From the NCBI RefSeq assembly GCF_009914755.1, contig NC_060940.1: DNA of 64,000 nt; one strand, 5' to 3'. The first letter of the stretch is position 1. Each line of letters starts with the position of its first letter. This document shows positions 52,898-53,996 of the stretch, piece by piece. The DNA comes from the human T2T-CHM13v2.0 reference genome, Homo sapiens. Made by a program: the position numbers and the translations under genes. The notes under the pieces were generated by a model that worked only from the letters and a program-made list of their open reading frames with translations, had not been told where the DNA came from and did not search any database.

Positions 52898-53996
52898 GGC
52901 TTGACACCATGGTGTATGCCTGTAATCCCAGCACTTTAGGAGGCTGAGGTGGGAGGATCACTTGAGGCCAGGAGTTCAAGACCAGTCAGGGTAACACAGT
53001 GAGATCCTGTCTCTACAAAAAATTTACCAAAAATAGGGCTGGGCACAGTGGCTCACACCTATAATCCCAGCACTTTGGGAGGCCCAGGAGGGTGGATCAC
53101 TTGAGATCAGGAGTTCAAGACCAGCCTGGCTAACATAGCAAAACCCCGTCTCTACTAAAAATACAAAAATTAGCCAGGCGTGGTGGCGGGGACCTGTAAT
53201 CCCAGGTACTCAGGAGGCTGAGGCAGGGAGAATAGCTTGAACCTGGGAGGCGGAGGTTGCAGTGAGCCAAGATCACGCCATTGCACTCCAGCCTGGGTGA
53301 CAGAGTGAGACTCTGTCTCAAACAAACAAACAAACAAACAAAAAACAATTACAAAAAAGAATTAGCCAAATGTAGTGGTATGCACCTGTAGTTCCAGCTA
53401 CTCAGGAGGCTGAGGTGAGAGGATTGTTTGGGCCCAGGAGGTGAAGGATGGGTCTTGTATAGTACTTGCATAGTACTCTGTAAATGTTTGACAAATTAGT
53501 GAATCACATTATTAACAACATGCATTTCACTAAGGAAATGATTAAAAAAAAGCCAGGTACAGTGGCTCACGAAAACAAGGCAAAATGATAACATTTCAAC
53601 TATAAATAGCAGAGCAAGCAGTTCCTCTGTCATCCTGCAAAACAATGAGGTTGCAGTGATCCCAGATCGTGCCACTGGACTCCAGCCTGGGCCACAGAGC
53701 AAGACCCTGGCTCAATAAATTTAATTTAATTTAAACAAAAAATAAAATCTTGAACCCTGTGATGCCAGGACTCCCAAGAGCCACAGTCACCTAAGAATTC
53801 CAGCCAACATCTATTGAAGGCTGACTGTGTGCCAGGCACGGGTCTAAGCACTTTACATGGATTCATCCAATCCTCACAGTGGCTCAAGCCTGTAATCCCG
53901 GGACTTTGGGAGGCCAAAGCAGGAGCTATGATTGTGCCTCTGCACTCCAGCCTGCAGGACAGAGCAAGATCCTGTCTCTTTAAAAGAAAAAAAAAA
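52898..53996 (+). mobile_element. AluJ-like host carrying a nested Alu (53037-53346) and a mosaic insertion (53448-53925)
   Basis: left arm 52898-53035, right arm 53347-53447, resumes GAGCTATGATTGTGCC at 53923; degenerate TSD AAAAGTGTCAC / AAAAGTGCCAC. Confidence 0.85.
53448..53925. repeat. Four-segment locally templated duplication
   Basis: matches rc(52049-52150), rc(54579-54661), 54950-55176, rc(52010-52060). Confidence 0.92.

What the first reader, a model, noticed from the sequence alone, without database searches (positions are those of the whole stretch)
53448..53925. Four-template mosaic insertion with microhomology junctions (fossil FoSTeS/MMBIR-type event) inside an Alu
Seen in sequence: the right arm of an Alu stops at ...CCCAGGAGGTGAAGG (53447) and resumes at GAGCTATGATTGTGCC (53923). 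The ~480 bp between them is copied from nearby DNA. Segment A, 53467-53569, is the reverse complement of 52049-52150 (non-Alu flank plus Alu head; it may extend loosely to ~52175). Segment B, 53568-53649, is the reverse complement of unique sequence 54579-54661. Segment C, 53647-53879, is a direct copy of 54950-55176 (Alu tail, unique DNA, MIR). Segment D, 53875-53925, is the reverse complement of 52010-52060 and includes the private variant AATCCCGGGACTTT. The junctions carry short shared bases: CA (A/B), GAG (B/C), CACAG (C/D), GAG (D/host Alu). A and D are adjacent and slightly overlapping at the source, so synthesis appears to have left the upstream template, visited two downstream templates on opposite strands, and returned. 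Established knowledge: serial microhomology-primed template switching is the signature of FoSTeS/MMBIR or Pol theta templated insertions. Inference: this is a germline event retained in this sequence, and repeat annotation would hide it as scattered Alu/MIR fragments.
Basis: partly seen in the sequence, partly recalled or inferred. Interest (0 to 1): 0.85.

Follow-up and report, generated by a model that had tools for sequence, protein, structure and literature searches.

The report
Patchwork DNA insertion inside an Alu
An old Alu repeat on human chromosome 16 carries a 475-base insertion stitched together from four nearby pieces of DNA, the kind of scar left when a DNA polymerase hops between templates during repair; it is a clean example of a known process and has no visible functional effect.

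Summary
Window 53448-53922 (475 bp) interrupts one old Alu (52898-53996). It consists of copies of four local templates: A = reverse complement (rc) of 52049-52150, B = rc of 54579-54661, C = 54950-55176 (direct), D = rc of 52010-52060. They are 94-98% identical to their sources and overlap at the joins by CA, GAG, CACAG and GAG. Genome-wide, the local sources are the best match for every segment.

The best reading is a fixed germline templated insertion made by serial microhomology-primed template switching (MMBIR/FoSTeS-like). It is millions of years old: 10 substitutions in 462 aligned bp.

- Segment C starts at the same Alu column where the host Alu breaks, and it carries the host-type TT. 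So about 9 nt may be the host's own sequence, giving six switches and no host deletion.
- Substitutions cluster near the junctions (P = 0.006; P = 0.034 when stratified by segment).
- 19 nt at the left edge remain unassigned.

Whether this was one event or two nested events (A+D first, B+C later) cannot be settled without ape orthologues, which no tool here holds. It is a new member of a known kind. It is larger and draws on more distant templates than the events found by published scans. Interest is moderate.

The parts
52898..53035 (+). Host Alu, left arm and start of the A-rich linker
   Evidence: Aligned to 54 window Alus. 21% from their majority.
52880..52890 (+). Candidate 5' target-site duplication of the host Alu (AAAAGTGTCAC)
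   Evidence: Matches 53993-54003 in 10 of 11 positions, P = 0.014 against random windows.
53037..53345 (+). Younger full-length Alu inserted in the host Alu's linker. Context only; not part of the mosaic.
   Evidence: Full-length alignment, 10.3% from the majority.
53345..53447 (+). Host Alu, right arm up to Alu column 225 (..CCCAGGAGGTGAAGG)
53448..53466 (+). 19 nt of unsettled origin at the left junction
   Evidence: Three readings are open. (a) 53456-53466 is an 11-nt tandem copy of 53467-53477 (10 of 11), leaving 8 nt unexplained. (b) It is a gapped extension of A to about 52181 (P = 0.033). (c) The 13-mer 53440-53452 recurs at 57612-57624 on the minus strand..
53467..53569 (+). Segment A, an inverted copy
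   Evidence: rc of 52049-52150; 5 substitutions in 102 aligned bp and one A-run indel.
53568..53649 (+). Segment B, an inverted copy of unique DNA
   Evidence: rc of 54579-54661; 1 substitution in 82 and one A-run indel.
53650..53659 (+). Ambiguous stretch GTTGCAGTGA: either the start of C or the host Alu's own columns 225-234
   Evidence: The insert has TT, as do the majority of window Alus (TTGCAGT in 30 of 54). The C source has a single T. The stretch fills the host's 7 missing columns.
53647..53879 (+). Segment C, a direct copy (Alu tail, A-rich tail, unique DNA, old dispersed repeat)
   Evidence: = 54950-55176; 2 substitutions in 227, a 1-nt T indel and one AATTT unit. The 3' part is a dispersed repeat with 70-87% copies genome-wide.
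53875..53925 (+). Segment D, an inverted copy of an Alu head
   Evidence: rc of 52010-52060, 2 mismatches in 51. Shares the rare CCCGGGAC variant with its source.
53923..53996 (+). Host Alu, from column 233 to the poly-A tail
   Evidence: 22% from the majority. Best local match is only 87%, so it is not a templated copy.
53993..54003 (+). Candidate 3' target-site duplication of the host Alu (AAAAGTGCCAC)
52010..52150 (-). Template for D (52010-52060) and A (52049-52150). The 12 nt 52049-52060 were copied twice.
   Evidence: Head of the full-length minus-strand Alu 51771-52062 plus its unique flank, contiguous at the source.
54579..54661 (-). Template for B
   Evidence: Unique DNA, contiguous on both sides. 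No other copy genome-wide among the scored candidates.
54950..55176 (+). Template for C
   Evidence: Tail of the full-length Alu 54742-55017 plus its flank. The repeat continues beyond 55176 at the source.

Best explanation
A break or stalled fork inside an old Alu was repaired by a low-processivity replicative pathway of the MMBIR/FoSTeS type. The free 3' end annealed through 2-5 nt (possibly up to 7-8 nt) of microhomology to single-stranded DNA nearby. It then copied in turn about 103 nt from 1.3 kb upstream (inverted), 82 nt from 1.1 kb downstream (inverted), 233 nt from 1.5 kb downstream (direct) and 51 nt from the first template again, restarting 11 nt behind the point it had left. Finally it rejoined the host Alu.

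The result was a 475-bp insertion in the germline that is now in the T2T reference. It lies in an intron of an uncharacterised lncRNA, and no functional consequence is visible.

Shown: the templates, the orientations, the overlaps, the retained sources and the age. Inferred: that it was a single event, the order and direction of synthesis, and the enzymes involved.
For: - Templates and junctions: the four templates and their exact overlaps are. P(sum of overlaps >= 13) = 1.8e-4.
- Copy, not cut-and-paste: all sources are intact and contiguous, while the copies are truncated at both ends.
- Copied twice: source bases 52049-52060 appear in both A and D. Copying explains this directly. Ligating fragments from one molecule does not.
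- CACAG overlap: CACAG is shared between the end of C's source and the start of D's source. A primed switch predicts this.
- Template range: all templates lie within 3.2 kb.
- Same Alu column: C begins at the Alu column where the host breaks (rough chance 0.005-0.01), and the insert carries the host-type TT. This suggests a brief return to the host followed by a slip to the paralogous Alu, which only a single event allows.
- Substitution clustering: mean distance to the nearest junction is 17 nt against 39 expected (P = 0.006; P = 0.034 stratified by segment). Error-prone replicative repair is expected to leave this pattern (PMC4937565, abstract read).
- Tract lengths: 51-233 bp exceeds the 2-35 bp reported for Pol theta (PMC7454005, passages).
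- Precedent: germline multi-template events of this kind are documented (PMC8421209, section 10 and passages; PMC6902434, passages, including an 861-bp FoSTeS x3 junction with one Alu/Alu switch).
Against: - Divergence is uneven: A+D 7 of 150 sites against B+C 3 of 309 (Fisher P = 0.018, post hoc). This grouping fits the data as well as junction proximity does (2dlnL 5.96 vs 4.9-7.5). Neither adds significantly to the other at three of the four distance cut-offs tried; at 30 nt, proximity adds to the grouping with P = 0.041. Two events of different age therefore remain possible.
- 19 nt at the left edge have no secure template.
- The clustering and column-coincidence tests were devised after looking at the data and rest on 10 substitutions.
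- No orthologue, population or long-read data could be examined.
- No enzyme dependence can be read from the sequence.
Confidence: 0.62

Rival explanations
1. Two successive template-switch events. First, an inverted copy of 52010-52150 (to about 52181) was inserted into the host Alu. Millions of years later, a second excursion inserted B+C into that copy, leaving at ..GTGGCTCA and returning 12 nt back at CACAG, which created the 12-nt duplication.
For: A and D are contiguous at the source and flank B+C with an 11-12 nt direct repeat. A+D are more diverged than B+C: 4.7% vs 1.0%, Fisher P = 0.018, LRT P = 0.015. The topology is the same as in the single-event model, so no extra coincidence is needed.
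Against: The grouping was chosen after seeing the data and is confounded with distance to the junctions. Both of C's substitutions lie within 21 nt of its right end, with none across 206 nt of its interior. Junction-proximal error predicts that pattern; uniform ageing does not. This model also leaves two things unexplained: why C starts at the host's break column, and why the insert keeps TT where the C source has a single T. It further requires two complex events at one 150-bp spot, while a 264-kb survey found only one other local unique-sequence copy.
Confidence: 0.25
2. End-joining capture. Loose DNA fragments from the neighbourhood, or short Pol theta-primed tracts, were ligated in random order and orientation into a double-strand break by NHEJ or TMEJ.
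For: The 2-5 nt microhomologies and mixed orientations are also seen in alternative end joining. Pol theta can copy from templates kilobases away (PMC7454005, passages).
Against: All four sources are still in place. A and D share 12 source bases, so at least two source molecules would be needed. The 51-233 bp tracts exceed the reported 2-35 bp for Pol theta (PMC7454005). All donors lie within 3.2 kb, and two pairs of donors are adjacent at the source.
Confidence: 0.07
3. RNA-mediated or L1-mediated insertion: chimeric retrocopies of the lncRNA intron made by reverse-transcriptase template switching.
For: The whole region is transcribed as an intron of LOC124907778 on the minus strand, according to the annotation supplied with the finding. 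L1 reverse transcriptase is known to switch templates (recalled, not checked).
Against: There is no target-site duplication around the insertion; 7 host columns are missing or displaced. There is no poly-A at either end. The segments have mixed orientation and are not in transcript order, so both strands would have to be transcribed.
Confidence: 0.02
4. Assembly chimera or a chance resemblance among repeats.
For: None found. Three of the four segments contain repeat sequence, which could in principle mislead an aligner.
Against: The copies differ from their sources by 10 substitutions and 4 indels, whereas a chimeric artefact would be identical to its sources. Unique-sequence parts of A, B and C still match after Alu masking and have no other genome copy among the scored candidates. 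D shares a variant found only 8 times in 3.1 Gb. At 475 bp the insertion is far shorter than the long reads that, from recall, underlie this T2T assembly.
Confidence: 0.01

Closest known systems
Germline complex MMBIR-type templated insertions (MMB-TIs; Osia et al. 2021, PMC8421209; section 10 and passages read)
   Same: The insertion is built from several templates in forward and inverted orientation, and most junctions carry microhomology. The events are present as germline variants, some shared between individuals. [quoted passage not shown]
   Different: Those events were found in short reads. They run from 10 bp up to read length, and their templates were searched within 100 bp of the insertion. 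Here the insertion is 475 bp, the tracts are 51-233 bp, the templates lie 0.9-1.9 kb from the insertion site, and the allele is old enough to have diverged 2.2% from its sources.
FoSTeS/MMBIR breakpoint-junction insertions in genomic disorders (e.g. PLP1 locus; Bahrambeigi et al. 2019, PMC6902434; passages read)
   Same: Iterative template switches give junction insertions of hundreds of bp from flanking DNA. One example is an 861-bp insertion from two flanking regions, FoSTeS x3, with one AluY/AluY-mediated switch. Microhomology and microhomeology occur at the join-points, and Alu paralogy serves as a switch substrate.
   Different: Those insertions sit at the junctions of large pathogenic copy-number gains. 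This one stands alone, with no associated large CNV, is apparently neutral, and is present in the reference.
Short-range template switches in great-ape evolution (Walker et al. 2021, PMC7954356; passages read)
   Same: These are evolutionarily retained template-switch mutations that look like mutation clusters or small insertions in alignments.
   Different: That model uses a single nearby template. The copied fragment has a median length of 12 nt and a maximum of 128 nt. Here there are four templates, up to 233 nt each, at kilobase range, so such scans would not report it.
Pol theta-mediated end joining with templated insertions (Hwang et al. 2020, PMC7454005; passages read)
   Same: Microhomology-primed copying from cis or trans templates, sometimes kilobases away, sometimes iterated.
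   Different: The reported tracts are 2-35 bp (5-15 bp in their assay). Here they are 51-233 bp.

Membership tests
MMBIR/FoSTeS-type templated insertion | The inserted sequence is copied from identifiable nearby templates, and the sources are retained | tested here: met
   456 of 475 nt are assigned to four local templates at 94-98% identity. The sources are intact and contiguous. 19 nt are unassigned.
MMBIR/FoSTeS-type templated insertion | Microhomology at the join-points | tested here: met
   The overlaps are 2, 3, 5 and 3 nt. Under random joining, P = 1.8e-4 for the sum of all four and 7.9e-4 for the three internal joins. There is no extended homeology at A/B, B/C or C/D. The left junction is unresolved.
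MMBIR/FoSTeS-type templated insertion | Templates in physical proximity and on either strand | tested here: met
   All templates lie between 52010 and 55176. Three are inverted and one is direct.
MMBIR/FoSTeS-type templated insertion | All switches belong to one event | tested here: inconclusive
   Four-way heterogeneity P = 0.089. A+D vs B+C P = 0.018, but confounded with junction proximity. The host-type TT and the shared Alu column favour one event. Orthologues are needed.
MMBIR/FoSTeS-type templated insertion | Extra point mutations or indels near the junctions (error-prone synthesis) | tested here: inconclusive
   8 of 10 substitutions lie within 25 nt of a junction, against 44% of sites. 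P = 0.006 unstratified and 0.034 stratified. The test is post hoc, has only 10 events, and cannot separate errors made at the event from later change.
MMBIR/FoSTeS-type templated insertion | Dependence on replication or BIR factors | not testable with these tools
   Sequence alone cannot show this.
Pol theta-mediated end joining templated insertion | Short templated tracts (reported as 2-35 bp) | tested here: not met
   The tracts are 103, 82, 233 and 51 bp, against the lengths given in PMC7454005 (passages).
Alu/Alu-mediated rearrangement (chimeric Alu) | A join between two Alus at homologous positions, giving a chimeric element | tested here: inconclusive
   If 53650-53659 is host sequence, the host Alu and the Alu at 54742-55017 are joined in register within columns 228-234. 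The alternative is a plain GAG join from B to the C source.
Target-primed retrotransposition (L1-mediated) | Target-site duplication flanking the insert and a 3' poly-A | tested here: not met
   The host Alu edges are columns 225 and 233, with no duplication. The insert ends in an Alu-head sequence, not in A's.

The most novel reading that the evidence does not exclude
The mosaic records a single repair episode with six switches. The nascent strand returned to the broken host Alu for only about 9 nt, slipped in register onto a paralogous Alu 1.3 kb away, and then went back to within 11 nt of the place it had left on its first template. The excess of substitutions near the joins is the error-prone synthesis of that episode, preserved for millions of years. 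If so, kilobase-range multi-template insertions with junction hypermutation are a class of fixed primate mutations that repeat annotation and current short-range template-switch scans miss. This locus would then be a natural record of processivity (51-233 nt per template) and template choice in human germline MMBIR.
Probability: 0.35. Interest if true: 0.55.

Novelty: new member of a known kind. Interest (0 to 1): 0.4.

Why it matters
The locus adds no new mechanism. It is a well-resolved, apparently neutral example of serial template switching retained in the human reference.

It gives tract lengths, jump distances (0.4-3.1 kb), microhomology use and a possible Alu-guided mis-return, without the ascertainment bias that comes from studying disease CNVs.

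Repeat annotation would show only Alu and MIR-like fragments here. Published evolutionary scans capture single templates up to 128 nt (PMC7954356). Short-read scans look for templates within 100 bp (PMC8421209). Events of this size and range are therefore probably under-counted.

In the 264 kb I could survey, only one other local unique-sequence copy turned up.

With ape T2T assemblies the locus offers a direct test of whether junction-proximal mutations arise together with the rearrangement.

Tried and rejected
- **Orthologues and earlier notes.** Dating by presence or absence, and polarising the ten differences, was therefore impossible.
- **Wider survey.** I planned to scan 664 kb.
- **The 19-nt left edge.** I tested an extension of A (P = 0.033), a tandem 11-mer, k-mer origins within 7 kb and a 13-mer recurrence at 57612-57624. 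That 13-mer has about 0.005 exact matches expected per 64 kb, or about 0.05 after allowing for the words tried. None of these is decisive.
- **Extended microhomeology at A/B, B/C and C/D.** None was found: donor and acceptor templates match ungapped at 10-16 of 43 positions.
- **CpG decay as a cause of the extra differences in A and D.** Reading the 5-nt contexts printed by eye, none of the 10 substitutions looks like a CpG transition in its present context.
- **A larger rearrangement followed by deletions (reasoned from the coordinates, no call).** The A/B join is of head-to-tail type, while the B/C and C/D joins are of inversion type. No simple inverted or tandem duplication gives this order.
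- **Other local copies from the same event.** After Alu masking, 47-61 kb shows only the A, B and C matches.
- **The 410-bp pair 9818-10226 / 25449-25857.** It looked like a second event but is a high-copy dispersed repeat.
- **Re-runs.** timed out and crashed on printing. Both were re-run.
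Full report
**What is there.** I read 51900-55400 and ran blastn of 53300-54100 against the whole window (316 rows). Apart from the self-match, four matches stand out among the highest-scoring rows:

| Segment | Insert | Source | Identity |
|---|---|---|---|
| C | 53647-53879 | 54950-55176, direct | 96.6% (233 columns, 2 mismatches, 2 gaps) |
| A | 53467-53569 | rc 52049-52150 | 94.2% (5 mismatches, 1 gap) |
| B | 53568-53649 | rc 54579-54661 | 97.6% (1 mismatch, 1 gap) |
| D | 53875-53925 | rc 52010-52060 | 96.1% (2 mismatches in 51) |

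Ordinary Alu-Alu matches in the same list were about 70-90% identical.

A search of the whole 3.1-Gb assembly with 53440-53930 (40 of 2403 first-look candidates scored, so counts are lower bounds) again ranks the local sources first for each part. For D it gives 84 bits at 96% against at most 64 bits at 91% elsewhere. After masking Alu-like sequence, a self-comparison of 47-61 kb returns only the unique parts of A, B and C. In the full 64 kb only 7 pairs reach 92% identity over 40 bp or more. Four are this mosaic, two are short Alu matches, and one is a 410-bp element that has many genome copies at 96-97%.

**The host.** I aligned the pieces with 54 near-full-length Alus of the window. The host Alu runs from 52898 to 53035. 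It is interrupted by a younger full-length Alu (53037-53345), continues from 53345 to 53447 up to Alu column 225 (..GGAGGTGAAGG), and resumes at 53923 at column 233 (GAGCTATGATTG..), running to its A-tail at about 53996. The three host pieces are 21%, 32% and 22% from the window majority, among the most diverged of the 54. A candidate target-site duplication, AAAAGTG[T/C]CAC (10 of 11; P = 0.014 against random windows), lies at 52880-52890 and 53993-54003. So 52898-53996 is one old Alu, and 53448-53922 (475 bp) is an insertion into it. There is no target-site duplication around the insertion and no A-tail. Seven Alu columns, reading TTGCAGT in 30 of 54 Alus and CTGCAGT in 9, are absent between the two host edges.

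**Direction of copying.** At the sources, the Alus are full length (51771-52062 on the minus strand; 54742-55017 on the plus strand) and the flanks run on without a break. The 3' part of C's source is an old dispersed repeat that continues past 55176. It has 70-87% copies across the genome, whereas the insert copy is 99% identical over 137 nt. The name MIR is from recall. The insert pieces are truncated on both sides, so the insert is the copy.

**Junctions.** Exact-match runs end where BLAST ended them. The overlaps are 53568-69 CA, 53647-49 GAG, 53875-79 CACAG and 53923-25 GAG. With the standard null for random joins, a sum of 13 or more over four joins has P = 1.8e-4, and 10 or more over the three internal joins has P = 7.9e-4. 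Donor and acceptor templates show no wider similarity around A/B, B/C or C/D: 10-16 of 43 positions match ungapped. A and D overlap by 12 nt at the source (52049-52060), so those bases were copied twice.

D's assignment rests on more than Alu similarity. AATCCCGGGACTTT occurs twice in the window, against 0 expected. The surrounding 26-mer occurs 8 times in the genome, and two of those are these sites, 1.9 kb apart.

1. *C may start later than it seems.* C starts at Alu column 222, which is the position where the host Alu breaks (column 225). A rough chance estimate is 0.005-0.01: nine Alu copies within 3.2 kb contain that column, allowing 3 columns either side on the correct strand. The estimate is post hoc. 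Moreover, the insert reads GAGGTTGCAGTGA with TT, like the Alu majority, while the C source reads GAGGTGCAGTGA with one T. There are two readings:
   - (i) B joined the C source at GAG, the source later lost a T, and the host lost 7 nt.
   - (ii) After B, the strand returned to the host Alu (microhomology AG/AGG), copied about 9 nt (TTGCAGTGA), and then slipped in register onto the paralogous Alu within GCAGTGA. That gives six switches, no host deletion and no later indel.

   Reading (ii) explains the coincidence and is compatible only with a single event. It is not proven.

2. *The left edge is not clean.* The 19 nt at 53448-53466 are not part of the BLAST match. 53456-53466 (TGTATAGTACT) looks like a tandem copy of 53467-53477 (TGCATAGTACT). 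Alternatively, the 19 nt align with gaps to the DNA that follows A's source up to about 52181 (score P = 0.033). A 13-mer spanning the junction (53440-53452) recurs once, on the minus strand at 57612-57624. For one word, about 0.005 exact matches are expected per 64 kb, or about 0.05 after allowing for the words tried. I leave this open.

3. *The differences from the sources are not evenly spread.* Substitutions number 5 of 102 (A), 1 of 82 (B), 2 of 227 (C) and 2 of 51 (D). Their mean distance to the nearest junction is 17.3 nt, against 38.9 expected (P = 0.006; P = 0.034 when the number per segment is held fixed). C has none across 206 interior nt. All four indels lie in runs or short repeats: two A-runs, the TT, and one AATTT unit.

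**One event or two.** The structure is nested: host -> [A -> {B -> C} -> D] -> host. In a single event, the inner excursion left and re-entered the distant template at 52 kb. In a two-step history, the A-D copy was inserted first and a later excursion from that copy added B+C with a 12-nt duplication.

For two steps: A+D carry 7 substitutions in 150 sites against 3 in 309 for B+C (Fisher P = 0.018; LRT P = 0.015). The four-way test gives P = 0.089.

For one step: distance to a junction explains the data equally well (2dlnL 4.9-7.5 against 5.96). The two factors are confounded, and neither adds significantly to the other at three of the four distance cut-offs tried; at 30 nt, proximity adds to the grouping with P = 0.041. 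Both of C's substitutions lie near its end. Reading (ii) above requires one event. Later gene conversion between C and its source could also flatten C's interior; I could not test this.

I put the single event at about 0.6 and the nested pair at about 0.25.

**Mechanism.** Four features point to copying by a polymerase that repeatedly dissociated and re-annealed at microhomology, that is, the MMBIR/FoSTeS class:
- The sources are retained.
- Twelve source bases are used twice.
- The switches are primed by 2-5 nt.
- The tracts are 51-233 nt long, and the templates lie on both strands within 3.2 kb.

Published comparisons (what I saw of each paper is given in brackets):
- Germline insertions from several templates, with microhomology at most junctions, are described in normal human genomes. 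The paper says up to five templates. Those were found in short reads, with templates searched within 100 bp (PMC8421209; section 10 and passages).
- An 861-bp junction insertion made by three switches, one of them AluY/AluY-mediated, is described at PLP1. Alu elements are discussed there as tracts of microhomeology (PMC6902434; passages).
- An excess of SNVs and indels in phase with germline deletions supports error-prone replicative repair (PMC4937565; abstract).
- Pol theta insertions are given as 2-35 bp, and 5-15 bp in one assay (PMC7454005; passages). This does not fit tracts of 51-233 bp.
- Fragment capture by end joining would need two source molecules to account for the shared 12 nt.
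- Retrotransposition is contradicted by the missing TSD and A-tail, and by the mixed orientations.

**Age and artefact.** The copies differ from their sources by 10 substitutions in 462 aligned nt (2.16%, Poisson 95% interval 1.0-4.0%) and by four indels. An assembly chimera would be identical to its sources.

Copy-source divergence accumulates like the divergence between two species. Against recalled single-copy divergences (about 1.2% for chimpanzee, 1.6% for gorilla, a little over 3% for orangutan, about 6% for macaque), the event falls between the chimpanzee and orangutan splits. If the junction-proximal differences were made at the event itself, the interior sites (2 of 259) allow a date near or after the human-chimpanzee split. 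By eye, from the 5-nt contexts printed, none of the ten looks like a CpG transition in its present context.

**Context and frequency.** The insertion lies in an intron of LOC124907778. According to the annotation supplied with the finding, no listed exon or RefSeq functional element overlaps it. I see no functional consequence.

In the 264 kb I could assemble around the window (and the window), 7 local pairs (92% or more, 40 bp or more, 50-5000 bp apart) were found. Four are this mosaic. One is another unique-sequence inverted pair of 145 bp at window coordinates -72672..-72528 and -71860..-71716. Two are repeats. Hominid scans for short-range template switches report copied fragments with a median of 12 nt and a maximum of 128 nt (PMC7954356; passages). 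An event of this size with four templates would therefore fall outside them.

My literature searches turned up no description of this locus. They were searches on mechanism terms, not on coordinates, so they do not show that it is unpublished.

**Verdict.** This is a new, larger member of a known class of mutation. It comes with two testable refinements (an Alu-guided mis-return and junction-proximal mutation) and one open question (one event or two), which ape assemblies would settle.

Noticed in passing
L011, about 7328-7472 and 8140-8284 (window coordinates -72672..-72528 and -71860..-71716): A 145-bp unique-sequence inverted pair, 95.9% identical and 668 bp apart, with sharp edges and only these two copies in 264 kb. 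It may be a single-template local inverted copy. It lies inside the LONP2 span.
   Followed up: partly
window 9818-10226 and 25449-25857: A 410-bp direct pair at 93.9% that looked like a second local duplication. It is a high-copy dispersed repeat: all 40 scored genome matches are 96-100% identical.
   Followed up: yes
window 53440-53452 and 57612-57624 (minus strand): The 13-mer GGTGAAGGATGGG spans the left junction of the mosaic and recurs once, 4.2 kb downstream, inside the annotated first exon of the lncRNA. It could be a 5-nt templated patch primed by 8 nt of microhomology, or it could be chance (about 0.05 after multiple testing).
   Followed up: partly
window 52898-53996: The host Alu carries two separate later insertions: a full-length younger Alu in its A-rich linker (53037-53345) and the mosaic. 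The host has a candidate 11-nt target-site duplication at 52880-52890 / 53993-54003.
   Followed up: yes
window 84558-84635 and 85205-85281 (outside the window, in L021): A 78-bp inverted pair at 92.3%, 570 bp apart, with 7 copies in 264 kb. Probably a low-copy repeat.
   Followed up: no
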